From contig JBIKMB010000090.1 in the NCBI GenBank assembly GCA_044359485.1, positions 1 to 21,246 of the forward strand: 21,246 nt of DNA, written 5' to 3'. The notes under the pieces were generated by a model that was given only the letters and a program-made list of their open reading frames with translations, was not told where the DNA came from and did not search any database. Of the stretch, positions 1 to 20,548 are shown in pieces. Within the stretch, counting starts at the first letter, position 1. Every line of letters starts with the position of its first letter. The DNA comes from Pirellulaceae bacterium. GTDB taxonomy: Bacteria > Planctomycetota > Planctomycetia > Pirellulales > Pirellulaceae. Both the position numbers and the translations under genes were made by a program.

Positions 1-1653
1 TTGCTGGCGATGATTAGGCTGGACTCAGGCGATATTGGCATCATAACGTTATTTGCTTTGGTGATTGGCTTATTGGGCTTGGCGACACCGTTGGCAGTCG
101 AGTCGTTAGTCAATACGGTGGTTTTTGGTCGTTATGTTCAGCCGATCATTATTTTGTCGCTGATGCTGTTTGTCTTTTTGATGTTCTCCGGCTTTCTCCG
201 AATATTGCAATCTTATGCGGCGGAGATTATTCAGCGACGCATGATGGTTCGCGTGGTAGGCGACCTAGCGAATCGAATACCTCGCGCGAACATCAAGCAA
301 TGGGACACTGTTTGGGGGCCAGAGCTAACAAACCGCTTCTTTGATGTGCTGACGCTTCAAAAGTCGGTTTCAACACTTTTTGTGGACGGAATCAGTTTGA
401 TCATGCAAACCATTATTGGTTTGGCATTGCTCGGTTTTTACCATCCATTCTTGCTCGGGTTTGACATCGTTTTAGTCGCTTGCGTCGTGGTTATCATTTT
501 GGTTTTGGGGCGTGGTGGTATCAAAACGGCTGAGAATGAATCGATTGTAAAGTACAAAGTTGCTCATTGGTTGCAGGATTTAGCTGGGGCGACAACGGCT
601 TTTAAGATTCATGGTGGCCGGCAGTTGGCGGTCGACCGAGCCAACCGATTGATGGGTGAGTATGTCGCGATGAGGAGTCGCCATTTTCGCGTGTTGTTAC
701 GACAGAATGCGGCGGGGATGATTCTTTACGCAGTCGCTTCAACCGCTCTGTTGGGCTTGGGTGGGTGGTTGGTTGTGCAGGGGCGATTGTCACCGGGTCA
801 ATTGGTCGCGGCAGAACTAATTGTCACGGTGATTCTTGGGTCATTCATGAAAATTGGAAAGCAAGTTGAGACCTTTTTTGATTTGACTGCCGGTGTCAAT
901 AAACTTGGACACCTTCTCGACCTGGAGACTGATCCGCCAGGACGCTTGATTGATGTCGGTACTGGGCCTGCTCCGGTGCACTGGACCAATCTAGCCATTG
1001 AGATAGAGAATACGCACAAGGAAATGCACTTCGAAGACTATACGATCGAAGCTGGTGAAACGGTTGCGATTGTCGGGCCCAGTGGATATGGCAAGTCGCT
1101 CCTGGCGGAGGCTTTGGTGGGAATGAGGAGTCCTTGTAGTGGCTATATTGAAATCGAAGGAATCGAAGCTCGTGAAGCTTCGCGATTGAGCGATGGTGGC
1201 ATGGCTGCAATGGCTGGCGGCCGCCATGTCTTTCATGGTACTGTGGCAGAGAATATTCATCTCGGTCGTCCCACGGTAACCGATGCGGATGTGCGAGAGA
1301 GTTTGCGCAAGGTTTTGGCTTGGGATGAAGTGCTCAAATTGCCCGAGGGGATGGAGACACCATTGCTCACTGGCGGGCGTCCCTTGTCTAGCGGCCAGAT
1401 TGACCGGCTGATGATTGCCAGAGCGATCGCCGGTTCGCCCAGAGTGCTTATCCTGGATGGGGCGTTAGATGCTTTGCCGATCGATGTTCGTCAAGGAATA
1501 TGGAACAATTTGACCAATCCGAAAACAGCGACGATCATCGTGATCACCAACGAGCCAGACATCATACAGAGATGTGATAAAGTAGTGAGTTTGCCTGGAG
1601 TGGGCGGTTCAGGGGTAGTTGGTAAATTGGACTCTTCACATGCTTTTGCGTAA
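1..1653 (+). CDS. ABC transporter, fused transmembrane domain (six predicted TM helices, type I exporter fold) plus C-terminal nucleotide-binding domain; HlyB/T1SS-type. The 5' end is probably truncated by the window edge, since TM1 begins at about residue 12. The NBD motifs are degenerate.
   Basis: The translation has six hydrophobic helices in the first ~300 aa. These are followed by Walker A GPSGYGKS, ABC signature LSSGQIDRL and a Walker B-like LILDGALDAL in which Gly replaces the catalytic Glu. The H-loop region reads ITNEP with no His, and no clear Q-loop Gln is present. The ORF begins at nt 1 only because TTG is accepted as a start codon. Confidence 0.85.
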   Translation: MLAMIRLDSGDIGIITLFALVIGLLGLATPLAVESLVNTVVFGRYVQPIIILSLMLFVFLMFSGFLRILQSYAAEIIQRRMMVRVVGDLANRIPRANIKQWDTVWGPELTNRFFDVLTLQKSVSTLFVDGISLIMQTIIGLALLGFYHPFLLGFDIVLVACVVVIILVLGRGGIKTAENESIVKYKVAHWLQDLAGATTAFKIHGGRQLAVDRANRLMGEYVAMRSRHFRVLLRQNAAGMILYAVASTALLGLGGWLVVQGRLSPGQLVAAELIVTVILGSFMKIGKQVETFFDLTAGVNKLGHLLDLETDPPGRLIDVGTGPAPVHWTNLAIEIENTHKEMHFEDYTIEAGETVAIVGPSGYGKSLLAEALVGMRSPCSGYIEIEGIEAREASRLSDGGMAAMAGGRHVFHGTVAENIHLGRPTVTDADVRESLRKVLAWDEVLKLPEGMETPLLTGGRPLSSGQIDRLMIARAIAGSPRVLILDGALDALPIDVRQGIWNNLTNPKTATIIVITNEPDIIQRCDKVVSLPGVGGSGVVGKLDSSHAFA

Positions 1654-1669
1654 GACAGATGAGTAGACA

Positions 1670-3052
1670 ATGTCGACCAAATATAGACCATGGGTGAGCG
1701 GCTTTGAACTAGCGAACGAAGTAGGGGGGGATTTTCCTGCCCTATTGCTTGTTCGCTCGGTCCGCTGGATTCGCAAATTAGCCTACTACACCATGTTTGG
1801 TCTCTTGTTAGTTTTAATCGCAATGGCAGCATTGCCGTGGCAGCAAACCTCCAGAGGCGAAGGCACGGTTTCCGCTCTCAATCCGCAAGAACGGCCGCAG
1901 CAAGTGAAGTCGCAGTATGATGGCATCGTCAAGCGAATTGCGGATGGGATGGTAGAAGGAAGAAGGGTTAAGAAAGGGGATTTTATCCTAGAGTTAGAAC
2001 CGACTGCGGCAGAGGAGTTAGCCCAGACCGATGCGATCTTGAATTTGTTGGAAGAGCAGTTGCGAGCCGAGCAATCCGAGTACGAGTTGTATCAATCCCA
2101 AGTGGAGCTAGCCGAATCAACACGGGATGCCAACATAGAGAAGCAGGAACTGGCGATTCAGACGGCGGAGTTTAAGTTGCAGGAAAAAGATTCGCTGATT
2201 CGCAAGTACAAGGTTGAATTGGAGCTAGCAAAATTAAATCGGGCACAAAGCGATCGATTGATAGCTGTTGGTGTGGAAGCGGGATTGGATAATGCGGCGT
2301 ATCGGGCCAAAGAAAATAGTTTGATCGAGGAATTAACCGCCAATTCACAATCGCGATCGGCGATCGAAACGGAGATCGGTGAGAAAAAGGCGGAACTGAA
2401 CAAGATCATCGCCGAGGGTAATGACAAAGTTGCCAGTGCAAAGACGAAAGTTCAGAGCGCTTATGGCAAATTGCAGATGACACAGCAGAAGATGAATGAT
2501 ACTAAAATAAAGCGGGGAGCATTGGATCGACTCAATCAGGATGCTCCCTGCGATGGGGTGCTTTATCGTTTGGTGACAGCCGAAGGTGCTTCAACAGTCA
2601 AAAAGGGGGATGAATTGTTTACGATCGTTCCCGATGTGAAAGAGTTGGCTGTCGAAATGGTGGTTTCGGGTAACGATACCTCCTTTATTCGTGAGGGCCA
2701 GGAAGTTAGGTTGCAGTTTGAAGGCTGGCCAGCGGTCCAATTGATCGGTTGGCCCTCGATTGCGATTGGAACATTTGGCGGTCGGGTAAAGATGATTGAC
2801 AAGTTTAGCGAGGGGGCTGGCAAGTTTCGAATACTTGTGGTTCCAGATCCTGAGCTGGATGTATTGAGCGGTCAGCGCCCCTGGCCGACTGAGTTATTGC
2901 GTCAAGGAATGCGTGCCAACGGATGGGTCATGCTTAATGAAGTAACACTGGGATTCGAAATATGGCGACAGTTGAATGGATTCCCGCCATCGCTGGACGA
3001 AGATGCGTCAGGCGAAGAAGAGAAGGCCAAGAAAGTCAAGTTACCGAAGTAA
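1670..3052 (+). CDS. HlyD-family membrane fusion protein (periplasmic adaptor) of a type I secretion/efflux system
   Basis: It has a short cytoplasmic N-terminus, one TM helix (YYTMFGLLLVLIAMAALPW) and a long heptad-rich coiled-coil region (EQLRAEQSEYELYQSQVELAE...KYKVELELAKLN...). The C-terminal beta-rich segment (VKKGDELFTIVP..., QEVRLQFEGWP) is typical of HlyD/EmrA adaptors. The ATG at 1670 lies 17 nt after the ABC gene stop, consistent with an operon. Confidence 0.85.
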   Translation: MSTKYRPWVSGFELANEVGGDFPALLLVRSVRWIRKLAYYTMFGLLLVLIAMAALPWQQTSRGEGTVSALNPQERPQQVKSQYDGIVKRIADGMVEGRRVKKGDFILELEPTAAEELAQTDAILNLLEEQLRAEQSEYELYQSQVELAESTRDANIEKQELAIQTAEFKLQEKDSLIRKYKVELELAKLNRAQSDRLIAVGVEAGLDNAAYRAKENSLIEELTANSQSRSAIETEIGEKKAELNKIIAEGNDKVASAKTKVQSAYGKLQMTQQKMNDTKIKRGALDRLNQDAPCDGVLYRLVTAEGASTVKKGDELFTIVPDVKELAVEMVVSGNDTSFIREGQEVRLQFEGWPAVQLIGWPSIAIGTFGGRVKMIDKFSEGAGKFRILVVPDPELDVLSGQRPWPTELLRQGMRANGWVMLNEVTLGFEIWRQLNGFPPSLDEDASGEEEKAKKVKLPK

Positions 3053-4920
3053 CGCAGTCTTTTTTCGGAACTTCGTTAGGGGCGACTCGGCTCGTAATTT
3101 GTTTACTACTGTTCATTACCTTCAGTTGCGCTTTCCGTTCTCGGAGCGTAGCATGTCAGGATAATGAGGAGGAAGTGATTGAGCCACAGAGAGTCGTGGC
3201 GGAGAGTGTTGTGCCGGAAGTTGCTCAACCTCAGGGCGTTGAGCTACAGGCGATCCGTTCAGCAAGCGGTATTGTGATACCTGCGCAAGAGCCTCAAGTT
3301 CAGGAGGGTAGGCCGCAGGGAGATTTGGCATTGCCTGCAACCATAGCTCCTCAAGTAACACCGGGTCAGAAACCCAACCCGATCGGAAATCCGAACCCGC
3401 CTCAAGATCCGAACCAGATTATCGATCCGAGCAAATTGTCTCAACCTTCTTTCGAAGAACTTCAGTCACAGTTGCCAGAGGGATTAAGGCGAGCTATCGA
3501 GGAACCTGAGAATGAAGGGAATCCCTCGGCATTAACGTTGAGCGATGTGATTGCATCGGTTTATCGAGCTTATCCGACGATTGAAGCGATTCGAATTCAG
3601 CGGCAAGTGGCTGATGGCGATTTATTGGCAACCTTTGGAGAATTTGATACGAAGATTCTCGCCGATACGATGAACGAGCCGACGGGATTCTACGAAAATT
3701 ATCGCCATGGGATTGGAGTAGCTCGCAACACATGGTGGGGCGGTTACTTAGCTACCGGTTATCGCATTGGACGCGGCGAGTATCAGCCGTGGTATAAAGA
3801 GCGAGAGACCTTGGATGGTGGTGAATTCAAGTTGGCCTACATTCAGCCGCTTCTGCAGGGGCGTGACATTGACCCAAGACGCGTGGCGGTTTTTCAGAAT
3901 CGAATTGCTGTGCAGGTTGTAGAACCGCAATTACAGACCGCAATTCTGCAGACATCTTTAGAGGCCGCAACGGTATATTGGGACTGGTTAGCCGCGGGTC
4001 GGAATCTGCGTGTGCAGCAGCAGCTCTTGGCGTTGGCGAGGCAAAGAGTGGCGCAGATACGAGAATTAATTGCCGCCCAACGACGGGCCAAAGTTGATGA
4101 GCTTTTTAATGACGTGTTGATAGCGCAGCGTCTTACCAAGGTCATTGAATCCGAACAAAAATTGCAGCAATCAACATTTAAGCTTGCGCTTTATTTGCGA
4201 GATGAAGGTGGTTCACCTTTGGTAGCGGATACTGGTTGGTTGCCCTCTTCGTTTCCGCCGTTGAGCGATACGCGGGAGATCGATGTGCAGCAGCAGATCG
4301 ATGAAGCTTTAGATCGACGTCCGGAGTTGGTCGAATTGCGTTTGCAAAACGAGGCTGTCCAGTGGGATCGCCGTTGGGCACAAAACCAGTTGCAGGGGCG
4401 GCTCGATTTCGTGGGTGAGATATCGCAAGATGTGGGACCCACGACGAGCAAGAATCGAGACAAGCAGCAATTTGAAGGTGAATTTGGTTTGACCTATGAA
4501 TATCCTTGGCAACTGCGCAAGGCTCGCGGAAAGCTGCGATCGACGGCCGCTAAATTGCAGCAAATCGATCAGAAAAGTCGTTTGCAAATGGACAAGATTT
4601 CGCTGGAAGTCCAAGCCGCAATTGTCGCTTTGCAGCGATCCCAAGAAGTGATCGAGCAATTGGTAAAAGTGGTCGAAACCCAAACACAGGTACTGGAGTT
4701 GCAAGAGATTCAGTTCAATACAGGGCGTATTGACTTGATCGAACTCAATTTGCAGGAACAGTTAATTACCAACTTAAAAATGGATTTGATTATGGCTCAG
4801 CGGGATTGGTTTACGGCGCTGAGCCAATTGGCGACTGCTACCGGTCTAGACCCGCTCGAGCAGGCTTTGCGATTGGAGACGATTCCCGATGGTACCCAAT
4901 CACCGGCTCCAGGGCGGTGA
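2962..4920 (+). CDS. TolC-like outer membrane factor (outer membrane efflux protein family) with an N-terminal signal/anchor segment and a Pro/Gln-rich linker
   Basis: A hydrophobic signal-like segment (RLVICLLLFITFSCAF) is followed by a low-complexity linker rich in P, Q and N. Two OEP-type repeat halves then follow (LTLSDVIASVYRAYPTIEAIRIQRQ... and IDEALDRRPELVELRLQNEAVQWDRRW...) with long predicted coiled coils. The start is uncertain: the only canonical start in frame is the ATG at 2962, which overlaps the hlyD-like gene by 91 nt. Confidence 0.75.
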   Translation: MATVEWIPAIAGRRCVRRRREGQESQVTEVTQSFFGTSLGATRLVICLLLFITFSCAFRSRSVACQDNEEEVIEPQRVVAESVVPEVAQPQGVELQAIRSASGIVIPAQEPQVQEGRPQGDLALPATIAPQVTPGQKPNPIGNPNPPQDPNQIIDPSKLSQPSFEELQSQLPEGLRRAIEEPENEGNPSALTLSDVIASVYRAYPTIEAIRIQRQVADGDLLATFGEFDTKILADTMNEPTGFYENYRHGIGVARNTWWGGYLATGYRIGRGEYQPWYKERETLDGGEFKLAYIQPLLQGRDIDPRRVAVFQNRIAVQVVEPQLQTAILQTSLEAATVYWDWLAAGRNLRVQQQLLALARQRVAQIRELIAAQRRAKVDELFNDVLIAQRLTKVIESEQKLQQSTFKLALYLRDEGGSPLVADTGWLPSSFPPLSDTREIDVQQQIDEALDRRPELVELRLQNEAVQWDRRWAQNQLQGRLDFVGEISQDVGPTTSKNRDKQQFEGEFGLTYEYPWQLRKARGKLRSTAAKLQQIDQKSRLQMDKISLEVQAAIVALQRSQEVIEQLVKVVETQTQVLELQEIQFNTGRIDLIELNLQEQLITNLKMDLIMAQRDWFTALSQLATATGLDPLEQALRLETIPDGTQSPAPGR

Positions 4921-5097
4921 ACAGGTATTACGGTATCTCTGCAAATTGGAACGCAAAAGGAGGTTGAGGGAAAGGTTTTTTTCAACTTGAGGGTGAGTCG
5001 GGTTGGCGTGGTGCAAGCTAAAAGCGTATAACGCTTACCTTTCCAGCACTTCGATGCTAATTCGATTTTTAAGTTTATCCATCGAGATCATGACGCC

Positions 5098-6111
5098 GTG
5101 GCCTTTGCACATCTAGGACCTATCGCGATAGCCTTTCCTAAGCGACTGGAAACCAATGCTCAGCTGCAAGCGGAGTTTCCGGAGTGGGATTTAAACCAAA
5201 TTGAAGAGAAGACGGGTATAGGCGCCCGCTATGTTGCCGAGCCTGGGCAGTGCGCTTCCGATCTGGCCGTAGAGGCGTGCGAGAAACTGTTTGCCGAAAA
5301 TCAGGTCGATCGAGCGGAAATCGATTTTTTGCTGTTGTGCACCCAAACGCCCGATTATCCGTTGCCAACTACGGCATGCCTTCTGCAAAATCGGCTTGGG
5401 CTATCGACTGGGATAGGAGCTCTCGATTTCAACCTCGGCTGTTCGGGATTTGTCTACGGATTATCGCTAGCCGACGGGCTCATTCGCAGCGGTGTGGCGA
5501 AGAAGATATTATTGATCACAGCGGATACTTACTCCAAATACATCGATCGAGCCGATCGAAGCCTGCGTACAATTTTTGGCGATGCGGCGGCGGTAACGCT
5601 AATCGAGGCGAGAGAGCAGCAAGAGGTATCGGGTTTTGTTTTTGGTACCGATGGTAGCGGAGCCGATACGCTATTGGTAGGCGAAGGTGGTTGCCGCGGA
5701 CCCGAAGAAGCGATTCGACCTCGGGGAAGAAAACGGTGGAAAAGCCGCTTGTATATGGATGGCCCAAGCCTAATGGCTTTTACCGTCGAAGCGATTCCTA
5801 TGCTGGTTGATACCGTGGCGGCCAAAGCAGGAGTTCGTAAAGAATCGATCGATTGGTTTCTTTTGCACCAAGCGTCGTATAAAATGTTGTCTCAGTTGCA
5901 AGGACGAATTGGATATGGCAACGAGAAAATTCCGATTCGCTTGCGAGAGTATGGTAACACCGTCTCTTGCACGATTCCCTTATTGATTCACGATATGCGT
6001 AAAAGTGGTGAGATCAAACTGGGCTCGACCTTGATGTTGGTGGGTTTTGGTGTGGGGTGGTCCTGGGCAGGTTGCGTATGGCGGGAGACGCATGCGCCAT
6101 GTTTGGCTTAG
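5098..6111 (+). CDS. 3-oxoacyl-ACP synthase III (KAS III, FabH family)
   Basis: The N-terminal FabH pattern IAFPKRLETNAQL...EEKTGIGARY is present. A Cys-His-Asn triad is present in conserved contexts (NLGCSGFVYGL, FLLHQASYKML, EYGNTVSCTIPLL). Length is 337 aa with a GTG start. An Arg-rich insertion of roughly 9 aa (RGPEEAIRPRGRKRWKSR) precedes the MDG motif. Confidence 0.85.
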   Translation: MAFAHLGPIAIAFPKRLETNAQLQAEFPEWDLNQIEEKTGIGARYVAEPGQCASDLAVEACEKLFAENQVDRAEIDFLLLCTQTPDYPLPTTACLLQNRLGLSTGIGALDFNLGCSGFVYGLSLADGLIRSGVAKKILLITADTYSKYIDRADRSLRTIFGDAAAVTLIEAREQQEVSGFVFGTDGSGADTLLVGEGGCRGPEEAIRPRGRKRWKSRLYMDGPSLMAFTVEAIPMLVDTVAAKAGVRKESIDWFLLHQASYKMLSQLQGRIGYGNEKIPIRLREYGNTVSCTIPLLIHDMRKSGEIKLGSTLMLVGFGVGWSWAGCVWRETHAPCLA

Positions 6112-6650
6112 AAGGTAAATTGCTCATCGCTTCGCCACAATTGCAGGATCCGAATTTCTATCGGTCTGTGGTTTTCATTATTCGGCACGACGAAGAAGGA
6201 GCATATGGTTTGGTCGTCAATCGTCCAACCAATCAATGCGTCGCCAAAGTAATGGAAATGCTCCTAGAGAGCCCGTGTCATCGCTCGGGCTTTATCATGA
6301 ACGGCGGGCCCGTCGAAGGCCCCTTGGTGGTTCTTCACGATTCCCCCAGCACATCCGATATCGAATGTGGTCATGAGCTATACCTGGCCAGTTGCCAAGA
6401 ACGCGTGCGTGAACTTATGGCCATCGATGATGGGCATGCACTGATTTTTGATGGTTACTCCGGTTGGGGCCCCGGACAACTCGAAGAAGAGTTGAAGATT
6501 GGGGGATGGTTGGTCGCCGAAACCGATGTTTCCGAGCTTTTCGGCGAAAACGCCGAGATTTGGGAACGTACATTGAGGCGAATCGGCCGTGACATCATCG
6601 CCTCAATTACGGGTAATGTCCCGTTGCCACCCGATCCAACGATCAACTAA
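6099..6650 (+). CDS. YqgE/AlgH family protein (UPF0301/DUF179)
   Basis: The family's N-terminal signature is present (LEGKLLIASPQLQDPNFYRSVVFIIRHDEEGAYGLVVNRP). The ATG at 6099 is preferred over the ORF-track start at 6057, which would overlap the FabH-like gene by 55 nt. Confidence 0.75.
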   Translation: MFGLEGKLLIASPQLQDPNFYRSVVFIIRHDEEGAYGLVVNRPTNQCVAKVMEMLLESPCHRSGFIMNGGPVEGPLVVLHDSPSTSDIECGHELYLASCQERVRELMAIDDGHALIFDGYSGWGPGQLEEELKIGGWLVAETDVSELFGENAEIWERTLRRIGRDIIASITGNVPLPPDPTIN

Positions 6651-6819
6651 CTTTTCGGTAACGGTAGCCATTCGAAGGTATCCGAACCAATGCCGGTCGA
6701 CTTGGTTTAAAATCATTCCCTTCCGGACCTGGATTTCGTGAAAAATAGCGCGAGGATTTGTTCCAGCTTCGAATTGGTTGAACCTCCAAGCCGTCGGATG
6801 GTCGATACCAGTCCTTATC

Positions 6820-6845
6820 GGGAATTCGTTAAAATGCGAATTCCC
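6820..6845. promoter_or_regulatory. Perfect 9-bp inverted repeat GGGAATTCG-N8-CGAATTCCC in the 376-nt leader upstream of the FAAL-ACP-AOS gene; candidate operator/regulatory hairpin
   Basis: Read directly from the sequence: gggaattcg ttaaaatg cgaattccc. It lies about 180 nt upstream of the ATG at 7027. No T-tract follows it, so it is not a classical terminator. Confidence 0.3.
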
Positions 6846-7026
6846 TGTAAATAGTGGCCTTACTATGGTGGCCTCGTTTGGGGCGTGAATTTTTGGAAGT
6901 TGTTAGGTACAATCCGCTATATTCTCTAGCTTTCGTAAACCCTGCAGATGGGAAGTTTGCAGGGGGAGACCCTTTGGTCTGGAGCGAATGTTGGAATTGG
7001 CGGGAGTTAGCAAGCATGGGTGAACC

Positions 7027-10000
7027 ATGAATGAGTTGGAGCCTGCGGACGTATCGAAATATTTTCCGACGTACGCTGTTCCTCAGACCGATTTAGTTTC
7101 GGCTGCACAGTTTTGGGCAGCTAAGACTCCAGACAATCCTGTGTTCTACTTTACCGATGGTGAAGATGGTGAGGATGTATGTCTGACGTATCGGCAGTTG
7201 GATCAGGCAGCGCGTGCGATTGCTTCGCGCCTTCAGCAAGCGGGTAGTGCCGAAGGGCAAAGGGTATTGTTGCTTTATCCGCCGGGACTCGATTTCGTGG
7301 TCGGTTTCTTTGGCACACTGTATGCCGGCGCGATTGCGGTTCCAGCGTTTCCTCCTCGCAAGAATCGCAGGGGGGCCCGCATTCAAAGTATCGCGGAGGA
7401 TTGCTCGGCGAATTGGGCGTTGAGCATCACCAGTGTTTGTGATTTGATTCATTCGGACGACAGCGCTCAGCAGGATTTGACGGGTGTGTCGATATTGGCC
7501 ACCGATCAAATCTCGTTGTCTCTCGCAGATCAATATAAGCCGGTAGCGATCAACCAGTTGGCACCTGCCGTTTTGCAATACACCTCCGGCTCTACTGGGC
7601 AACCGAAGGGTGTGGTTTTGAGCCATGCTTGTTTGGTGCGAAATTCTGAATTGATTTTGCTGGCCTTTGAACCGGGGCCTGGGGGAGGCTGCAGTTGGTT
7701 GCCGTTGTATCATGACATGGGACTGGTGGGTGGAGTTTTGGAACCGGTCTTTTTGGGACGTCCCAATGTTTTGATGAGTCCGATGAGTTTCTTGCAGCGG
7801 CCGGCAAGATGGTTGCGAACGATATCCAAATATCGTGTCGCCGTCAGTGGTGGACCGAATTTTGCTTATCAACTCTGCGTCGACAAAGTGACCGAGGCGG
7901 ACATGGAGGGGATCGACTTAAGTTGTTGGTCGGTCGCTTATAACGGAGCCGAACCGGTTCGGGCATCGACCTTAACGCAGTTTAGTGAGAAGTTTGAGAA
8001 ATATGGTTTCAATAAATCCGCATTTCTTCCATGTTATGGGATGGCTGAAACGACGTTGATTGTTACCGGTGGACCCACATCGACCCGTCCTTTCTTCCGA
8101 ACCTTTGATGCTCAGGCACTGGATCAGCGCAAAGTGCAACCGCTTGCTGCGGACGATGGATCGGACAAGTGCCGAACGTTGGTCGGTTGCGGAGCTGTAT
8201 TGTCCAATGAAAACGTGATTGTGGTGGATCCGGACACGTTGGAGGAGCTGCCGCCAGGGCGAGTGGGAGAGATTTGGATACAGAGCCCGAGTGTGGGCAA
8301 AGGATATTGGCGGAAACCGCAGGAAAGCCAGCGGACATTTCAGGCATTTACGGTTGCAGGCCGAGGGCCCTTTTTGCGGACGGGCGACTTAGGTTTTCTG
8401 CATGAGAATCAGTTGTTTGTCGCGGGTCGATTGAAGGACATGATCATTGTCCGCGGGGTGAATCGCTATCCTCAAGATATTGAGTTGACTGTCGAAGAAT
8501 CGCACAAGAGTATCCAGTCTGGCTCGGTGGCGGCGTTTTCCTTGCAAGTCGATGAACGCGAGCGACTGGTCGTTACGGCAGAAGTCCAGCGTGGTGCTCA
8601 GCAGAATTGGGACGAAGTGATACAGGCGATTCGTCGTAGAGTTACCGAAGTACATGAACTCCCTCCCGAAGCCATCGCGTTGGTCCGCTTTGGAACTCTC
8701 CCGAAAACCTCGAGCGGAAAAATTCAGCGGCATGCCTGCATGAATGATTACAAAAACAATGCGTTGAAATTGGTGGCGCATTGGAAGTTGGGCGAAGTGC
8801 AAATGCTTAAGCAGGAGCCGATGATTGCGGCCTCGACCATTGATGCGCCGGTTCGAGATAGTGGTTCGATCAAGAGTCTATTGAGCGACCCCAAGCTGAA
8901 TGAAAAAGATCCGCATCCAGAAATTGTACGCGTCGTGATAGCAGCGGTGAAAGCGATCGCTCAAGAGCGGGCCGAAAATGTAAGTATTGATACGAACATC
9001 GTCTTGGACTTGGGGCTTGATTCGTTGGAACGATTGCAGATTGCGCATTCCTTGGAACAGCAATTTGGGGGTCGGTTCCCTGAGGATATCTTGCAAGATA
9101 TTGAAACGGTGCGGCAGGTATCGGCAGCGATCGAGGAATTGTTTGGAGTCGAACGCATTCATCGCAGTTTGACCGAGGCGGTTGCTGCAGAAGAAGTCTT
9201 ATACAGTCGCGAAGTGACACCCGAGGATTATCAATTTGATTTGATTCCCGAGTATCGTCGTCTCAAGATGACGATGGCCGAACTGTTATCGACCGGAGTG
9301 CGCAATCCTTATTTTGCCGCGCATCAAGGCGTGGTTCGCGACACGACAACGATCGGTGGTCGCGAGTTGATCAGTTTCGCATCGTATAACTATCTTGGCA
9401 TGAGCGGTGATCCCGCCGTCAACAAGGCTGTGGTGGAAGCGGTTCACAAATATGGAACCAGTTGCTCGGCATCGCGTTTGGTGAGTGGCGAAAAAGACCT
9501 GCACCAAAAACTAGAGCGTCGCATCGCCAAGTGGATCGGCGTCGAAGATAGTATTGTGATGGTGGGGGGGCATGCGACCAATGAATCGGTGATTGGGCAT
9601 TTGCTCGGTCCTGGCGATTTGATTTTGCATGATTCGTTATCCCACAATAGTATCGTGCAAGGAGCAATACTCTCGGGTGCAAGAAGACGTGCATTCCCGC
9701 ACAATGATTGGCGAGCGCTCGAACGAATCCTGCAAGATATCCGCGACAAGTATCGACGTGTGTTGGTGATTGTCGAAGGCGTCTACAGCATGGATGGTGA
9801 TTATCCCGACTTGCCAAAGTTTGTTGACATCAAGCAGCGAAACAAATGTTGGTTGATGGTCGATGAAGCGCATTCCATCGGCACCATGGGTAAGACGGGA
9901 CGTGGTATTAGCGAACACTTTGGTCTAGATGCCAATGTCGTCGACATTTGGATGGGAACGCTCAGCAAGTCGTTCGGTTCATGCGGCGGCTATATCGCTG

Positions 10001-10467
10001 GCCGTCGTGAATTGATTGAGTATTTGAAGTATACGACTCCTGGGTTCGTCTTCAGTGTCGGTTTGTCACCCTCCAATGCGGCTGCCGCACTTGCTTCGTT
10101 AGATGTTTTGGAAGCGGAACCGATGCGGGTCGAGCGTTTGCGACAAAACTCTCAATTGTTTTTGGAAGAAGCCCGCAAACGCGGACTCAATACGGGCGAT
10201 TCGTGCGGAACTCCGGTGGTTCCCGTGATTTTGGGTAATTCGTTCATCGCGCTAAAACTAGCCGATCGCATGGTTAGCCAAGGCATCAATGTGCTACCGA
10301 TCTTGTACCCAGCGGTTGAAGAAGCTGCAGCACGCTTGCGTTTCTTCATCAATTCGACGCATTCTGAAAATCAAATATTGTTCGCAGTACGATTGGTTGA
10401 GGAGTCGTTACGCGATCTCTATCCCGAGTACTTTGTGAATTCCGATTCCGATCGATCGGTCGCTTAG
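7027..10467 (+). CDS. Tri-domain fatty acyl-AMP ligase (FAAL) - acyl carrier protein - alpha-oxoamine synthase (class II aminotransferase, BioF/KBL/SPT/CqsA family) fusion protein
   Basis: Adenylation motifs are present in order: YTSGSTGQPKGVVLSH, CYGMAETT, RTGDLGF and PKTSSGKIQR. The ACP Ppant site is LDLGLDSLERLQIAHSLEQQFG. The C-terminal PLP-dependent AOS domain carries NYLGM, DEAHSIGTMG and the PLP-lysine motif GTLSKSFGSCGGY. The ORF is a single uninterrupted 1146-aa reading frame. Confidence 0.9.
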   Translation: MNELEPADVSKYFPTYAVPQTDLVSAAQFWAAKTPDNPVFYFTDGEDGEDVCLTYRQLDQAARAIASRLQQAGSAEGQRVLLLYPPGLDFVVGFFGTLYAGAIAVPAFPPRKNRRGARIQSIAEDCSANWALSITSVCDLIHSDDSAQQDLTGVSILATDQISLSLADQYKPVAINQLAPAVLQYTSGSTGQPKGVVLSHACLVRNSELILLAFEPGPGGGCSWLPLYHDMGLVGGVLEPVFLGRPNVLMSPMSFLQRPARWLRTISKYRVAVSGGPNFAYQLCVDKVTEADMEGIDLSCWSVAYNGAEPVRASTLTQFSEKFEKYGFNKSAFLPCYGMAETTLIVTGGPTSTRPFFRTFDAQALDQRKVQPLAADDGSDKCRTLVGCGAVLSNENVIVVDPDTLEELPPGRVGEIWIQSPSVGKGYWRKPQESQRTFQAFTVAGRGPFLRTGDLGFLHENQLFVAGRLKDMIIVRGVNRYPQDIELTVEESHKSIQSGSVAAFSLQVDERERLVVTAEVQRGAQQNWDEVIQAIRRRVTEVHELPPEAIALVRFGTLPKTSSGKIQRHACMNDYKNNALKLVAHWKLGEVQMLKQEPMIAASTIDAPVRDSGSIKSLLSDPKLNEKDPHPEIVRVVIAAVKAIAQERAENVSIDTNIVLDLGLDSLERLQIAHSLEQQFGGRFPEDILQDIETVRQVSAAIEELFGVERIHRSLTEAVAAEEVLYSREVTPEDYQFDLIPEYRRLKMTMAELLSTGVRNPYFAAHQGVVRDTTTIGGRELISFASYNYLGMSGDPAVNKAVVEAVHKYGTSCSASRLVSGEKDLHQKLERRIAKWIGVEDSIVMVGGHATNESVIGHLLGPGDLILHDSLSHNSIVQGAILSGARRRAFPHNDWRALERILQDIRDKYRRVLVIVEGVYSMDGDYPDLPKFVDIKQRNKCWLMVDEAHSIGTMGKTGRGISEHFGLDANVVDIWMGTLSKSFGSCGGYIAGRRELIEYLKYTTPGFVFSVGLSPSNAAAALASLDVLEAEPMRVERLRQNSQLFLEEARKRGLNTGDSCGTPVVPVILGNSFIALKLADRMVSQGINVLPILYPAVEEAAARLRFFINSTHSENQILFAVRLVEESLRDLYPEYFVNSDSDRSVA

Positions 10468-10569
10468 GAATCGTAAAGCTTCTTGGCAAAATTCGCAGGG
10501 GATGTTGCCGACACGTTTTTGAAGTTGTACAGTTGACCAAGTTTGACTGTGGCAAAAGGAGACGTATCG

Positions 10570-11073
10570 GTGACAGAACCAGCGAAATCAGGTGGAATGC
10601 TCGATTGGCTCAAATCGATGATACCCGGCTATTCGGGCTATCAAGAATTTGAATCTCGCAGAGAAGACGATCGCAAAACGCGAAAATTTTTGATCGATCG
10701 ATTGCAAGAATACAAACGCTTATCGCAGAGCTACACCAAAAATTTTCTACAATCGGCTCAGTTGGATCAAATTGCCAAAGGTGAAAAACTGAGAGCCGAT
10801 ATCGATGCGCTGCAGCAAAAAATTGAAGCATCGGTGGATGGAAAAAGCAATTGGTTTACGCAGTCAAAGCCAGATGCGGCAGCAAGTTTGAGGTTGAGCC
10901 AGATTGATGGGGCGATTGTGGCCGACTTGGAACGACTTGCGAAATATCTGGCCGATCCAGAAGTCCCTTCTTTGGAACCTTTGGTGGTGGATTTAGATAA
11001 GGCGAGTGAATCACTGGGTGAAATGCGGGCAAAGTGGGAACGCAGGCTATCGATATTGCGAGGCGAGAATTAG
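10570..11073 (+). CDS. Hypothetical protein, largely alpha-helical/coiled-coil, with no recognisable family
   Basis: The ORF is in frame from the TTG at 10543. The GTG at 10570 is preceded by AAGGAG (10556-10561) with an 8-nt spacer. The ATG at 10597 (MLDWLKSM...) is an alternative start. The gene ends 12 nt before the SPFH gene, so the two are likely co-transcribed. Confidence 0.5.
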   Translation: MTEPAKSGGMLDWLKSMIPGYSGYQEFESRREDDRKTRKFLIDRLQEYKRLSQSYTKNFLQSAQLDQIAKGEKLRADIDALQQKIEASVDGKSNWFTQSKPDAAASLRLSQIDGAIVADLERLAKYLADPEVPSLEPLVVDLDKASESLGEMRAKWERRLSILRGEN

Positions 11074-11085
11074 AAAGGACTTGGT

Positions 11086-12447
11086 ATGGTTTTTCGATTG
11101 GAAGTCATCGACTTTTTTGATCCCTCCGGTGACATGGTTGTGGGGCGAGTTCCCGCCGATGGAACTGCGGCTATTCAGTTGGGAGCTCAATTGCTCGTTC
11201 AACAAGCGCAAGAAGCGGTTTTTTTTCGCGATGGCAAAGCGATGGACGTCTTCGGCCCCGGTCGCTATACGCTGACGACTGCCAATGTGCCCATTCTTAC
11301 TCGCATATTGACCATCCCGTGGGAGAAGTCTCCCTTTCAAGCGGCAGTCTATTTTGTTGGCAAGCAAACCTTTGTCGATCAGCGGTGGGGTACCAAAACT
11401 CCGATCACGATGCGAGATCCTGATTTTGGATTGGTGCGTTTGCGCGGTTTCGGCAAGTTTGGCTTTCGCGTTATCGATGCACCCTTATTGATCAATTCAT
11501 TGGTTGGAACACGCGGACGCTTTACCACCGAACAAGTCACAAGTTACTTGAAGGATGTGATCGTTTCAGGCTTAACCGATTTTTTGGCGACGGCAGGTAT
11601 CGGTCTGATCGATCTCCCCTCAAAATTTGATGAAGTGGCCGCCGCCGCGCGACTCAAACTTGCCGATTCGTTCAACAAATTTGGGATCGAGCTTACCGAT
11701 TTCGTTATCAACAGTATCACTCCACCGGAAGAGGTCGAGAAAGCAATTGACGCTCGTTCCGGCATGACTGTCTTAGGCGACTTGAAATCGTATACGCTTT
11801 ATCAAGCAGCCAATTCGATGGCAGCAGCAGGTCAGAACCCGGCTGTGGGGACAGGTATGGGCTTCGGCATGGGGATGGCATTTCCAGCAGCGTTGCAACA
11901 AGCCTTTCTGCCGGGGGGCGTGGGGGCCTCGCCGCCGCAACAAGTTCCCGTCGCTGCGCAGCCCGCGACTCCTTCAGGGACGTCTGCCGCTGCGGCTCCT
12001 AAGCTGAATTTGAACGCGCTCGAATCCTTTAAACCCCCGATAGACATTCGCTCGTTGGTACGTCAAGTCGCCAGCTCGTCTCATTGGAGCTTGAAGGAGC
12101 AAGGGGATCAGTGGGCGATGACTGTCCCGGTCGGCAGTTTGCGGAAACAAGTCGTTTATGCCAACTTCGGACGCAAAGATGATGATGGGCATGAGCTGAT
12201 TGGATTTTGGTCTCCTTGTGGGCCCGCCAATCCCAATAATGCCGTGACCTTATTGAGGTTTAATCATCAAACCGTTCATGGGGCTTTCGCGTTCCAACCC
12301 AAGGAACAGGGGGGGGAAGAGTTAGTTCTCCGCAGCAATTTGTTGGCAGATACAATCGATGCGTTCGAAGTGCTGCGCGTGGTAAGCGCGATTGCGTTTC
12401 AAGCGGATGAAGTCGAGCAGCAACTGACGGGAGCGGACGAACTTTAA
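11086..12447 (+). CDS. SPFH/band-7 domain protein of the group often annotated 'putative virion core protein' (PF13421-like), with a low-complexity Gly/Met and Pro/Ala linker and a distinct ~120-aa C-terminal domain
   Basis: The N-terminal pattern FRDGKAMDVFGPGRYTLTTANVPIL...SPFQAAVYFVGKQTFVDQRWGTKTPITMRDPDFGLVRLRGFGKFGFRV matches the conserved block of this SPFH subgroup. The linker reads GMGFGMGMAFPAALQ...PPQQVPVAAQPATPSGTSAAAAP. The C-terminal globular region reads YANFGRKDDDGHELIGFWSPCG... Confidence 0.75.
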   Translation: MVFRLEVIDFFDPSGDMVVGRVPADGTAAIQLGAQLLVQQAQEAVFFRDGKAMDVFGPGRYTLTTANVPILTRILTIPWEKSPFQAAVYFVGKQTFVDQRWGTKTPITMRDPDFGLVRLRGFGKFGFRVIDAPLLINSLVGTRGRFTTEQVTSYLKDVIVSGLTDFLATAGIGLIDLPSKFDEVAAAARLKLADSFNKFGIELTDFVINSITPPEEVEKAIDARSGMTVLGDLKSYTLYQAANSMAAAGQNPAVGTGMGFGMGMAFPAALQQAFLPGGVGASPPQQVPVAAQPATPSGTSAAAAPKLNLNALESFKPPIDIRSLVRQVASSSHWSLKEQGDQWAMTVPVGSLRKQVVYANFGRKDDDGHELIGFWSPCGPANPNNAVTLLRFNHQTVHGAFAFQPKEQGGEELVLRSNLLADTIDAFEVLRVVSAIAFQADEVEQQLTGADEL

Positions 12448-13651: not shown

Positions 13652-13725
13652 GCCAGCATAGCTTCAATTGGCAGAGCACCGCATTCGTAATGCGGGGGTT
13701 GTGGGTTCGATTCCCACTGCTGGCT
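13652..13725 (+). tRNA. tRNA-Thr (anticodon CGU)
   Basis: Manual cloverleaf folding gives a perfect 7-bp acceptor stem (GCCAGCA/TGCTGGC), a D stem GCTT/GAGC and an anticodon stem CCGCA/TGCGG with loop TTCGTAA (anticodon CGT). The T arm is GTGGG-TTCGATT-CCCAC. No CCA is encoded. Confidence 0.85.
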
Positions 13726-13773
13726 CTTTTATCGCTACCATTTCTGAATCGTTTCCCGAGGAGTCTTGGCCAA

Positions 13774-20323: not shown

Positions 20324-20548
20324 ATGGACGCTGTTGACGATAGAATTTTCAATATCTTGAGGGAAAAGTTCAGTATGGAGTCGACCAAGGACACCCCTTT
20401 GGCTGCCCTGGGGGTCGATTCTTTGGGGATGGCCGAATTGACTGTTGATTTAGAAAAACAGTTTTCCATCAAGGTGGATGAAGATATTTTGGGAATTGAA
20501 ACGGTAGGTGAATTAATTGCCTACGTTCGGTCGAAACAGACGACCTAA
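20324..20548 (+). CDS. Stand-alone acyl carrier protein, divergent from housekeeping AcpP
   Basis: A phosphopantetheine attachment motif sits at the expected position (LGVDSLGMAELTVDLEKQF) within a ~74-aa ORF. An ACP-like helix III/IV follows (ILGIETVGELIAYV). The start is assigned to the ATG at 20324 (MDAVDDRIF...). Confidence 0.7.
   Translation: MDAVDDRIFNILREKFSMESTKDTPLAALGVDSLGMAELTVDLEKQFSIKVDEDILGIETVGELIAYVRSKQTT

What the first reader, a model, noticed from the sequence alone, without database searches (positions are those of the whole stretch)
1..10467. Candidate biosynthesis-plus-export locus: T1SS-like ABC/HlyD/TolC operon followed by KAS III, AlgH and the FAAL-ACP-AOS enzyme
Six same-strand genes are tightly arranged. 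A three-component envelope-spanning exporter (gaps of 17 nt and -91 nt) comes first. A non-housekeeping-context FabH-like KAS III and a YqgE/AlgH gene follow; these two overlap or abut. The amino-ketone megasynthase comes last, preceded by a 376-nt leader containing a perfect palindrome. In a canonical fab cluster fabH sits with plsX/fabD/fabG/acpP, and none of those are present here. The KAS III could therefore supply an unusual primer or chain for the FAAL, and the exporter could secrete the lipid-derived product. The arrangement resembles a compact secondary-metabolite or signal cluster rather than primary metabolism.
Basis: inference. Interest (0 to 1): 0.6.

Follow-up and report, generated by a model that had tools for sequence, protein, structure and literature searches.

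The report
Three unrelated gene modules, not one cluster
The six genes are real, but comparison with relatives shows three separate units (an export pump, a fatty-acid starter enzyme with its partner, and a large lipid-amine synthase) that lie together only in this planctomycete's closest relatives, so this is probably not a dedicated make-and-export cluster.

Summary

- **Exporter.** The ABC–HlyD–OMF exporter lies next to KAS III and the synthase only in genus-level relatives (HlyD ≥70 % identical). Its ~44 % homologues keep the three-gene pump but have unrelated neighbours.
- **KAS III–AlgH.** This pair is what remains of a KAS III–AlgH–ApaH-like phosphoesterase operon that is widespread in Pirellulales and usually lies far from the synthase. 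The phosphoesterase gene is absent here, and that absence accounts for much of the 376-nt "leader".
- **Synthase.** The FAAL–ACP–AOS protein is widely conserved (~60 % identity) and mostly stands alone. Only one family-level clade keeps KAS III–AlgH–phosphoesterase–synthase as an array, always with a gap of at least 250 nt before the synthase.
- **Leader.** The palindrome is not conserved even in the nearest relative. A promoter-like block and a structured 5′ leader are conserved at genus level.

Most likely the synthase independently turns free fatty acids into a sphingoid-like amino-ketone, as a fused analogue of AasR–AcpR–Spt. Whether this KAS III is the housekeeping FabH could not be tested. 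Interest is modest.

The parts
1..1653 (+). ABC exporter, fused transmembrane and ATPase domains (ABCB/type I-secretion-like). These are the C-terminal 550 aa of a 745-aa protein whose first ~195 aa lie outside the window.
   Evidence: PF00664 and PF00005 match. The best NCBIfam matches are NHLP/type I secretion ABC families, all far below their cut-offs. The full gene is seen in L081, and its N-terminal extension has no Pfam domain. PDB similarity is generic ABCB, PCAT, MsbA.
1670..3052 (+). HlyD-family periplasmic adaptor (membrane fusion protein), 460 aa.
   Evidence: PF13437 and PF16576 match. TIGR01843 scores 75.6 bits against a cut-off of 208. Homologues at >=70 % identity share this context; ~44 % homologues sit in ABC-HlyD-OMF modules elsewhere.
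2962..4920 (+). Outer-membrane factor (OEP/TolC-like). The start is uncertain: ATG 2962 keeps a signal-peptide-like N-terminus, while gene callers chose GTG 3175 or GTG 3196.
   Evidence: PF02321 matches in two stretches. Start-codon analysis is; the gene calls are.
5098..6111 (+). KAS III (FabH-like condensing enzyme), 337 aa, with an intact Cys-His-Asn triad. It belongs to a non-canonical subfamily.
   Evidence: PF08545 and PF08541 match. NF006829 scores 258.8 (cut-off 249), but TIGR00747 fabH scores 220 (cut-off 292). The best PDB match is 3GWA at 319 bits, against 139 bits for E. coli FabH; identity to E. coli FabH is 27 %. Orthologues at ~65 % identity occur across Pirellulales.
6099..6650 (+). 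AlgH/YqgE (DUF179) protein, 183 aa. It overlaps the KAS III stop codon by 13 nt.
   Evidence: PF02622 E = 4e-37. AlgH follows KAS III in about 60 % of orthologous loci.
6651..7026 (+). Intergenic region before the synthase. In relatives at 92 % and ~62 % synthase identity, an ApaH-like metallophosphoesterase gene occupies the position between AlgH and the synthase; here it is absent without remnant.
   Evidence: The phosphoesterase is present in L085, L092, L088, L089, L090 and L086. tblastn finds no remnant in the window. Window 6769-7100 aligns to L085 9760-10074 at 79 % identity.
6820..6845 (.). Perfect 9-bp inverted repeat GGGAATTCG-N8-CGAATTCCC. It is specific to this window.
   Evidence: Found. 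It is imperfect in the closest relative L091 and absent from the other ten relatives examined.
6885..6913 (+). Promoter-like block: GTGAAT, 17 nt, TACAAT.
   Evidence: TACAATCCGC lies at -119 to -126 from the start codon in all seven genus-level relatives, whether or not the phosphoesterase gene is present. It is below the threshold of the sigma-70 consensus scan and is not found in ~62 % relatives.
6914..7035 (+). Candidate structured 5' leader of the synthase mRNA, with a final hairpin (CAUGG-GUGAA-CCAUG) that contains the start codon.
   Evidence: MFE -49.1 kcal/mol, z = -3.64. Across six relatives 90.5 % of cells are paired, against 31-48 % in slid controls, and 8 pairs show compensatory changes. 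There is no Rfam match. A covariance model finds it only in the genus-level relatives.
7027..10467 (+). FAAL-ACP-AOS tridomain synthase, 1146 aa. FAAL is ~aa 30-583 (nt 7114-8777), ACP is aa 636-702 (nt 8932-9132), and the SPT/KBL-like alpha-oxoamine synthase is aa 780-1117 (nt 9364-10377).
   Evidence: Pfam matches are and FAAL-family NCBIfam matches. The carrier Ser666 and PLP Lys981 are invariant in 19 homologues. The AOS domain's best PDB matches are LCB2/SPTLC2, S. multivorum SPT, ThAOS and KBL. The top 120 hits are all full-length and >=59 % identical, from Pirellulaceae or Planctomycetota.

Best explanation
The region is a lineage-specific juxtaposition of three independent modules, not one biosynthesis-plus-export cluster.

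1. **ABC-HlyD-OMF.** This is an autonomous tripartite envelope exporter of the type I-secretion or peptide-exporter kind. Its substrate is unknown. It arrived next to the other genes only in this genus.
2. **KAS III-AlgH.** This is the remainder of a KAS III-AlgH-ApaH-like phosphoesterase operon that is conserved across Pirellulales. The KAS III is probably a core fatty-acid-synthesis initiating enzyme of these organisms rather than a tailoring enzyme (inferred). The phosphoesterase gene is absent in this lineage, and that leaves most of the 376-nt gap.
3. **The FAAL-ACP-AOS gene.** It is probably transcribed from its own promoter-like element, about 120 nt upstream, through a structured leader. 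Its inferred chemistry follows from domain order and intact catalytic residues. The FAAL domain adenylates a free long-chain fatty acid and loads it on the internal carrier domain. The PLP domain then condenses the acyl chain decarboxylatively with a small amino acid (serine most likely; glycine or alanine possible). The product would be a long-chain alpha-amino-ketone similar to 3-ketosphinganine. This is a one-polypeptide version of the AasR + AcpR + Spt system, and the product is probably used for a cell-envelope lipid.
For: **Synteny.**
- The exporter is linked to the other genes only where HlyD is >=70 % and the synthase >=84 % identical.
- HlyD homologues at ~44 % keep ABC-HlyD-OMF with unrelated neighbours.
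- Rosistilla has KAS III-AlgH-phosphoesterase beside trigger factor, with no synthase and no exporter.
- AlgH follows KAS III in about 60 % of 64 informative loci, and the phosphoesterase follows in 22 of 55.
- The synthase is near KAS III in only 5 of 32 informative loci, and two of those five are close relatives.
- Only 2 of 13 synthase-centred species loci have KAS III upstream.

**KAS III as a core enzyme.**
- Orthologues show ~65 % identity and 78 % mean column identity across the order.
- Its recurring neighbours are housekeeping genes, including trigger factor and, in some loci, a FabI-like reductase.

**Synthase.**
- The catalytic residues are invariant.
- The A domain matches FAAL families.
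- The AOS domain is nearest to SPT and KBL.
- Homologues in other phyla are followed by an SDR and lie near GNAT-type genes, as expected if they make long-chain bases or ceramide-like lipids.
- Even where the four-gene array is kept, 251-433 nt precede the synthase.
- A conserved TACAAT block and a structured leader lie upstream.
- The unfused analogue is documented in PMC9386255.
Against: - The KAS III-AlgH-phosphoesterase-synthase order persists at ~62 % identity although the flanks differ, and it recurs in L103, which sits in another branch of the synthase tree. This is more than expected in genomes with little operon conservation, so a functional link between KAS III and the synthase is not excluded.
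- This KAS III is atypical for a housekeeping FabH. It fails the TIGR00747 cut-off, is 27 % identical to E. coli FabH, and its closest solved relative is a Burkholderia paralogue outside the fab cluster.
- I could not check whether a canonical fabH exists elsewhere in the genome.
- The amino-acid substrate, the product and its destination are all inferred.
- No reductase or N-acyltransferase partner was found in the window.
- The promoter-like block fails the sigma-70 scan threshold.
- The leader structure rests on only three sub-lineages.
Confidence: 0.6

Rival explanations
1. KAS III-AlgH-(phosphoesterase)-synthase is a genuine lipid pathway module, without the exporter. The KAS III would make or extend a particular acyl chain, possibly acting on the synthase's own carrier domain. 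The FAAL-ACP-AOS enzyme would then convert that chain into an amino-lipid. AlgH and the phosphoesterase would act as regulators or accessory proteins.
For: The four-gene order is conserved in L002, L088, L089 and L090 at ~62-63 % synthase identity, with different flanks on both sides. It recurs in L103, which lies in a different branch of the synthase tree, and KAS III lies 3.1 kb from the synthase in L115 and L117. The KAS III belongs to a non-canonical subfamily whose solved member is a paralogue outside the fab cluster.
Against: Most KAS III orthologues are not near the synthase (27 of 30 informative loci that are not close relatives), and most synthase genes are not near a KAS III (11 of 13). 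In L115 and L117 the two genes are convergent and separated by unrelated genes. No KAS III accompanies synthase homologues in other phyla. A FAAL takes free fatty acids and needs no dedicated primer. The phosphoesterase can be absent, as here. The adjacency could stem from one or two ancestral events.
Confidence: 0.22
2. One reading: all six genes form one secondary-metabolite or signal cluster. KAS III supplies the chain, FAAL-ACP-AOS makes an amino-ketone, and the tripartite ABC pump secretes it.
For: The six genes share a strand and the same order in all genus-level relatives. Tripartite ABC exporters can move lipids; DevBCA-TolC, recalled from my own knowledge, is one example. In Acidobacteriota, an MFS exporter gene lies beside synthase homologues, so export of such products is conceivable.
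Against: The exporter linkage disappears beyond the genus in every direction tested. There are gaps of 177 nt and 376 nt, and the synthase has its own conserved promoter-like block. Both the synthase and the KAS III are order-wide conserved genes, not patchy accessory genes. By sequence the ABC protein is a generic ABCB or peptide-exporter type.
Confidence: 0.07
3. The synthase makes a diffusible alpha-amino- or alpha-hydroxy-ketone signal, like CqsA and LqsA, rather than a membrane lipid precursor.
For: The AOS domain matches the alpha-hydroxyketone autoinducer synthase family NF005526 at 167 bits. The chemistry is the same.
Against: That match is weaker than the matches to BioF, SPT and KBL (349-303 bits) and is far below its own cut-off. 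CqsA-type enzymes are stand-alone and use acyl-CoA (my own knowledge). No cognate sensor kinase lies adjacent to the synthase. Conservation across the whole order fits a structural role better.
Confidence: 0.08

Closest known systems
AasR (acyl-ACP synthetase) + AcpR (dedicated ACP) + Spt of Caulobacter and other Rhodobacteria (PMC9386255)
   Same: The logic and order of chemistry are the same. An adenylating enzyme loads a fatty acid on a dedicated carrier protein, and a PLP-dependent alpha-oxoamine synthase condenses it with an amino acid. The AOS domain here is most similar to SPTs among solved structures.
   Different: Here the three functions are fused in one 1146-aa polypeptide. The adenylating domain matches FAAL families rather than AasR. 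Use of serine is not shown. No ceramide synthase or reductase gene is nearby in the window.
A-CP-AOS proteins catalogued by Milano et al. 2013 (Blastopirellula marina A3ZWL3, Microscilla marina A1ZVW4, Synechococcus PCC 7002 B1XHP8; PMC3870968)
   Same: The domain architecture is identical, and one example comes from a planctomycete.
   Different: That work only catalogued and modelled the proteins; no function or product was assigned. The sequence relationship to A3ZWL3 was not measured here.
Type I secretion and peptide-exporter systems (HlyB-HlyD-TolC, PrtDEF, PCAT-type)
   Same: The composition is the same: ABC, membrane fusion protein and outer-membrane factor. The gene order is the same, and the best NCBIfam matches are to these families.
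   Different: All matches are far below family cut-offs. The 195-aa N-terminal extension has no recognisable C39 or C39-like domain. No candidate substrate gene was identified.
Burkholderia pseudomallei BURPS1710b_0096 KAS III (PDB 3GWA)
   Same: It is the closest solved relative of the window's KAS III (319 bits). Like the window gene, it lies outside the fabD-fabG cluster, and it shares only 30 % identity with the fab-cluster FabH orthologue 4DFE.
   Different: Its biochemical role is not described in the paper I read. It comes from a different phylum and a different genomic context.
E. coli-type housekeeping FabH
   Same: It has the KAS III fold domains and the Cys-His-Asn triad.
   Different: Identity is 27 %. 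The window protein scores below the TIGR00747 cut-off. It is never next to plsX or fabD in the 77 orthologous loci examined.

Membership tests
Dedicated biosynthetic gene cluster (core enzyme + tailoring enzyme + transporter) | The component genes stay co-located across relatives that carry the core enzyme. | tested here: not met
   The exporter is linked only at genus level and is absent from relatives at ~62 % identity. KAS III is linked in only one clade plus L103.
Dedicated biosynthetic gene cluster (core enzyme + tailoring enzyme + transporter) | The genes are co-transcribed or co-regulated. | not testable with these tools
   Only indirect evidence is available: gaps of 177 and 376 nt, and a conserved promoter-like block before the synthase. 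The promoter and terminator scan found no more sites than chance.
Type I secretion system (ABC-MFP-OMF) | Three components are present: an ABC exporter with transmembrane and ATPase domains, a HlyD-type adaptor, and a TolC-type outer-membrane factor. | tested here: met
   PF00664 + PF00005, PF13437 + PF16576, and PF02321 with two stretches. The same three-gene module is conserved in L172-L174.
Type I secretion system (ABC-MFP-OMF) | The proteins reach the curated family thresholds (TIGR01842, TIGR01846, TIGR01843). | tested here: not met
   The ABC protein scores 151 and 132 bits against cut-offs of 510 and 726. HlyD scores 75.6 against 208.65.
Type I secretion system (ABC-MFP-OMF) | A cognate secreted substrate (RTX-type or leader-peptide protein) is encoded nearby, or the ABC protein has a C39 or C39-like domain. 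| tested here: not met
   The 195-aa N-terminal extension has no Pfam domain. The neighbours are a PSCyt/PSD1 + DUF1501 pair and KAS III. No RTX-type or leader-peptide gene was seen in the Pfam scans and precomputed neighbour annotations of window-identical contigs; there was no dedicated substrate search and small ORFs were not examined.
Housekeeping FabH (KAS III of type II fatty-acid synthesis) | The Cys-His-Asn catalytic triad is present. | tested here: met
   C115, H257 and N287 are invariant in 16 orthologues.
Housekeeping FabH (KAS III of type II fatty-acid synthesis) | The protein reaches the fabH family threshold. | tested here: inconclusive
   TIGR00747 scores 220, below the 292.1 cut-off, so it is not met. 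The broader NF006829 scores 258.8, above its 249 cut-off, so it is met.
Housekeeping FabH (KAS III of type II fatty-acid synthesis) | The gene lies with plsX, fabD, fabG and acpP. | tested here: not met
   None of these genes is in the window. They are also not among the recurring neighbours in 77 orthologous loci. A FabI-like gene is adjacent in a few loci.
Housekeeping FabH (KAS III of type II fatty-acid synthesis) | It is the only KAS III in the genome, or it is essential for bulk fatty-acid synthesis. | not testable with these tools
   No whole-genome access was available. No second KAS III appears in the 2.35 Mb of loci held, but these loci were targeted, not random.
FAAL-ACP-AOS / serine palmitoyltransferase-type long-chain-base synthase | The adenylating domain is of the fatty acyl-AMP ligase type. 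| tested here: inconclusive
   The best matches are FAAL families (NF004509 462 bits, FadD32 397 bits), and the DIP2-like C-terminal subdomain PF23024 matches. All FAAL matches are below whole-protein cut-offs.
FAAL-ACP-AOS / serine palmitoyltransferase-type long-chain-base synthase | The carrier-domain serine and the PLP-binding lysine are conserved. | tested here: met
   D665-S666-L667 and K981 are invariant across 19 homologues.
FAAL-ACP-AOS / serine palmitoyltransferase-type long-chain-base synthase | The enzyme is specific for serine, making it a true SPT. | tested here: inconclusive
   SPT LCB2 is the best PDB match (243 bits), but ThAOS and KBL are close behind (223 and 211 bits). In NCBIfam, bioF scores 349, SPT 313 and KBL 304 bits, all below their cut-offs.
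FAAL-ACP-AOS / serine palmitoyltransferase-type long-chain-base synthase | Downstream pathway genes (3-keto reductase, N-acyltransferase) are present. | tested here: not met
   None is found in the window. An SDR follows the homologue in L019, L021, L024 and L115, and a GNAT-type gene lies near it in L020, L021 and L023.
AlgH/YqgE (DUF179) | The protein matches the family profile. | tested here: met
   PF02622 scores 128 bits against a cut-off of 27. The NCBIfam equivalogs score below their cut-offs.

The most novel reading that the evidence does not exclude
The FAAL-ACP-AOS fusion is the committed enzyme of an undescribed, order-wide planctomycetal long-chain-base (sphingoid-like) lipid pathway. 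In one family it is functionally coupled to the KAS III-AlgH-phosphoesterase operon. In this genus it is controlled by a structured 5' leader that hides the start codon, and it has been placed next to a tripartite pump that delivers the lipid to the outer membrane.
Probability: 0.12. Interest if true: 0.6.

Novelty: new member of a known kind. Interest (0 to 1): 0.3.

Why it matters
If the ordinary reading is right, this window adds no new system. It shows that same-strand proximity in a planctomycete genome is weak evidence of a cluster, and it corrects the idea that the 376-nt gap is a regulatory leader.

The useful residue is the FAAL-ACP-AOS gene. It is conserved at about 60 % identity across Pirellulales, and its architecture was catalogued in 2013. 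My literature searches found no assigned product.

Planctomycete envelope lipids are poorly known, and metagenomic surveys count many Planctomycetota with Spt-like genes (PMC11334938). A direct assay of this one-polypeptide enzyme would show whether these bacteria make sphingoid-type bases from recycled fatty acids.

Tried and rejected
- **Palindrome as regulator: rejected.** It is perfect only in this window, degraded in the closest relative examined (L091, whose MEGA N-terminus is identical) and absent in the others.
- **Riboswitch or known RNA in the gaps: none.** Rfam gave no match at E <= 1 in 4900-7100. The only gathering-level hit in the window is a tRNA.
- **Promoter and terminator scan.** Counts were no higher than in shuffled sequence, so the scan is uninformative.
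- **Pseudogene remnant of the phosphoesterase in the gap: none**. The 61-aa ORF called in L085 is not in one frame here, so it is probably not a gene.
- **Phosphoesterase as LpxH (lipid A): rejected.** It matches ApaH, PrpE and Ser/Thr-phosphatase types.
- **Leader covariance model.** It found only its own training sequences and nothing upstream of the synthase in ~62 % relatives.
- **Exporter belongs with the upstream PSCyt/PSD1 + DUF1501 pair.** This pairing is seen again in L172 but not in L173 or L174, and the pair is highly paralogous in planctomycetes (the last point is my own knowledge). It is not supported.
- **ABC substrate from sequence.** PDB matches are generic ABCB, PCAT and MsbA, so they are uninformative.
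- **Second, canonical fabH.** I could not look for one.
- **Literature.** Searches pairing FAAL with 'oxoamine synthase' returned nothing. That is not proof that the enzyme is uncharacterised.
- **An error of mine.** The AlgH query used was translated from 6100, which is out of frame. It gave spuriously low identities (74, 41 and 36 %) and briefly suggested a 'divergence hot spot'. With the correct frame (6099), AlgH is 94.5 %, 80 %, 77 % and 60 % identical to L091, L085, L092 and L171. The HMM-based counts are unaffected.

Full report
**What is in the sequence.** The window is about 50 % G+C with positive GC skew throughout. Positions 1-10467 carry six + strand genes with strong family matches.
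- ABC exporter, 1-1653.
- HlyD-family adaptor, 1670-3052.
- OEP/TolC-like outer-membrane factor, ending at 4920.
- KAS III, 5098-6111.
- AlgH/DUF179, 6099-6650.
- A 1146-aa FAAL-ACP-AOS protein, 7027-10467, called "the synthase" below.

- The ABC gene is cut by the window edge. It encodes 745 aa in identical metagenome contigs (L081-L084), and the missing 195-aa N-terminus has no Pfam domain.
- The ABC-HlyD gap is 16 nt.
- The TolC start is ambiguous. ATG 2962 is the only in-frame start that keeps a signal-peptide-like segment. Gene callers chose GTG 3175 or GTG 3196.
- AlgH starts at ATG 6099 and overlaps KAS III by 13 nt.
- Gaps of 177 nt (before KAS III) and 376 nt (before the synthase) interrupt the array.

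The closest homologues are named Pirellulaceae, Pirellula or Planctomycetota, so the source is a Pirellulales-type planctomycete.

**Synteny centred on the synthase.** The synthase has very many full-length homologues at 59-64 % identity. I scanned one genome per species with a profile of 19 homologues. I then ran tblastn with the window's proteins against the flanks.
- The complete ABC-HlyD-TolC-KAS III-AlgH-synthase order occurs only in L004 (84 % synthase identity).
- KAS III-AlgH-synthase occurs in L002 (63 %).
- Eleven other Pirellulales-type loci with 3-10 kb of upstream sequence have none of these genes nearby: L003, L005-L008, L011, L013, L022, L025, L027 and L029.
- Homologues in Acidobacteriota, cyanobacteria, Legionella and Phycisphaerales have other neighbours: short-chain dehydrogenase, a 383-aa GNAT-type protein, an MFS exporter, or acyl-CoA dehydrogenase. 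None has a KAS III.

**Close and intermediate relatives.** Contigs carrying the identical protein, a 92 % relative (L085) and a relative with 71 % HlyD identity (L171) share the window's order. All also have a PSCyt/PSD1 + DUF1501 pair upstream of the ABC gene.

Three relatives at 62-63 % synthase identity (L088, L089, L090) have KAS III-AlgH-metallophosphoesterase-synthase. Their flanks are unrelated to the window's and they carry no exporter. In these three loci the gap before the synthase is 433, 251 and 255 nt.

**Synteny centred on KAS III.** KAS III orthologues are also conserved at about 65 % identity across the order.
- In Rosistilla oblonga the gene sits in a KAS III-AlgH-metallophosphoesterase unit beside trigger factor, with neither the synthase nor the exporter.
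- A metagenome scan returned 80 orthologous loci. The exporter is upstream only in the three closest (KAS III 96, 90 and 76 % identical).
- AlgH follows KAS III in about 60 % of the 64 informative loci.
- The phosphoesterase follows in 22 of 55 informative loci.
- The synthase lies within 10 kb downstream in 5 of 32 informative loci. Two of these are close relatives. L103 has it on the same strand. In L115 and L117 it is on the opposite strand, with a Zn-peptidase, a 3-keto-disaccharide hydrolase and an SDR in between.
- Recurring KAS III neighbours are AlgH, the phosphoesterase, trigger factor, a histidine kinase and, in a few loci, a FabI-like reductase. plsX and fabD never appear.

**Synteny centred on the exporter.** HlyD homologues fall from >=70 % identity (same context) straight to about 45 %. 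Three of the ~44 % homologues on long contigs (L172-L174) keep ABC (679-731 aa)-HlyD-OMF as a three-gene module. Their neighbours are unrelated, and no KAS III, AlgH or synthase lies within 10 kb. The exporter is therefore an autonomous module.

**Tree.** I built a crude neighbour-joining tree of synthase proteins. It places all loci with KAS III upstream in one clade (the window group plus L002 and L088-L090), except L103, which falls among loci without KAS III. L115, with the convergent arrangement, is sister to that clade. The adjacency is thus inherited within one family-level clade and has at least one possible second origin. This is why a KAS III-synthase link keeps a probability of about 0.2.

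**What each part is.**
- *Exporter.* It is a type I-secretion or peptide-exporter-like tripartite pump by composition. Every curated family match is far below its cut-off. PDB similarity is generic. The substrate cannot be read from the sequence.
- *KAS III.* It has the Cys-His-Asn triad. It passes the broad NF006829 model but not TIGR00747 fabH. It is 27 % identical to E. coli FabH. Its nearest solved relative is B. pseudomallei BURPS1710b_0096 (3GWA, 319 bits), a paralogue outside the fabD-fabG cluster. Order-wide conservation and housekeeping neighbours suggest a core role. I could not check for a second fabH.
- *Phosphoesterase.* It resembles ApaH, PrpE and Ser/Thr phosphatases, not LpxH.
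- *Synthase.* Its best A-domain matches are FAAL families (below cut-offs), and the carrier serine and PLP lysine are invariant. Its AOS domain is closest to serine palmitoyltransferases (LCB2 243 bits, S. multivorum SPT 222 bits), with ThAOS and KBL close behind. The A-CP-AOS architecture was listed for Blastopirellula marina in 2013 without a function. The unfused AasR + AcpR + Spt system is the known analogue.

**The 376-nt "leader".**
- Relatives at 92 % (L085, L092) and at about 62 % synthase identity carry the phosphoesterase gene between AlgH and the synthase. The window, its nearest relative L091, and the L171/L004/L093 group do not. No remnant is left in the window.
- The last ~260 nt of the gap align with L085 at 79 % identity.
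- The palindrome is perfect only here.
- A block ending in TACAATCCGC lies 119-126 nt before the start codon in all seven genus-level relatives. It can be read as GTGAAT-17 nt-TACAAT, which is too weak for the consensus scan to report.
- The 122 nt from that block to just past the ATG fold unusually well (z = -3.64).
- The consensus fold has 90.5 % paired cells, against 31-48 % in slid controls, and eight pairs with compensatory changes. It includes an invariant hairpin that contains the start codon.
- This rests on three sub-lineages, and the structure was derived from the same alignment. A covariance model finds nothing in more distant relatives, and there is no Rfam match. I treat it as a genus-level candidate 5' leader that is consistent with independent transcription of the synthase.

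**Most likely mechanism.**
- *Shown:* domain content, intact catalytic residues, and the conservation patterns of the three modules.
- *Inferred:* the FAAL domain adenylates a free long-chain fatty acid and loads it on the internal ACP. The SPT-like PLP domain condenses it with serine (or glycine or alanine) to give a 3-ketosphinganine-like amino-ketone for an envelope lipid.
- *Also inferred:* KAS III-AlgH is a separate, probably housekeeping unit, and the pump serves an unrelated substrate.

I give the three-module reading 0.60.

**Novelty and score.** All components are known kinds. The locus is a new member of those kinds, not a new system. The synthase's product is the only open and worthwhile question. 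Interest is 0.3.

**Caveats.**
- The metagenome and genome scans returned only the best 80 loci each, and many contigs are short.
- The tree is crude.
- My early AlgH tblastn query was out of frame; this was corrected.
- The housekeeping status of the KAS III, the substrate and product of the synthase, and the transcription units are all untested.

Noticed in passing
window 6651-7026, compared with L085 9004-9744 and L092: An ApaH-like metallophosphoesterase gene (235-246 aa) sits between AlgH and the synthase in relatives at 92 % and ~62 % synthase identity. It is absent without remnant in this window, in L091 and in the L171/L004/L093 group. KAS III-AlgH-phosphoesterase is a recurrent triad across Pirellulales, and its function is unknown.
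   Followed up: yes
window 6914-7035: A candidate structured 5' leader of the synthase mRNA (z = -3.64). Compensatory changes occur among genus-level relatives, and an invariant hairpin encloses the start codon. There is no Rfam match, and it was not detected in more distant relatives.
   Followed up: yes
window 13652-13725 (+): A tRNA gene (Rfam RF00005, 61 bits). It overlaps the first listed start (13690) of the TPR/RpoA-CTD ORF, so the true start of that ORF is probably downstream; gene callers used a position equivalent to about 13774.
   Followed up: no
window 13690-15099 (+): An unusual protein that combines TPR repeats with two stretches matching the RNA polymerase alpha-subunit C-terminal domain (PF03118, E = 4e-43).
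   Followed up: no
window 20324-20548 (+); L175 18782-21889 (beyond the window): A small stand-alone acyl carrier protein (74 aa) that is not AcpP-like lies beside a PIG-L deacetylase gene. About 6 kb past the window end lie a FabF/FabB-like ketosynthase, a second small ACP and an amine-oxidase or CrtI-like flavoprotein. This may be another lipid or polyketide module in the neighbourhood.
   Followed up: partly
L081 1-2257 (upstream of the window); L171; L172: A PSCyt1/PSCyt2/PSD1 protein plus DUF1501 pair precedes the ABC gene in this genus and follows the homologous pump in L172. It is not next to the pumps in L173 or L174.
   Followed up: partly
L019, L021, L024, L115 (SDR); L020, L021, L023 (383-aa GNAT-type); L017, L018, L023 (MFS_3); L008, L017, L018, L021 (acyl-CoA dehydrogenase): Synthase homologues in other phyla, and in L115, have recurring neighbours that would fit a pathway of keto-reduction, N-acylation and export, similar to ceramide synthesis.
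   Followed up: partly
L007 13861-15042 (-), and homologues in L005, L009, L011, L022, L025: A ~390-aa protein lies convergent to the synthase in several Pirellulales. It has no Pfam or NCBIfam match, has a signal peptide, and has a C-terminus resembling a beta-barrel outer-membrane protein. It is absent from this window.
   Followed up: partly
L099 4217-5023: In a few Pirellulales loci the KAS III orthologue is followed directly by a FabI-like enoyl-ACP reductase (the twelve best NCBIfam hits are FabI models, all below cut-off). This hints that this KAS III works in ordinary fatty-acid synthesis.
   Followed up: partly
window 10543-12447 (+): A ~170-aa protein of unknown family and an SPFH/Band 7 protein follow the synthase. 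The pairing is conserved only in genus-level relatives (L085, L171).
   Followed up: partly
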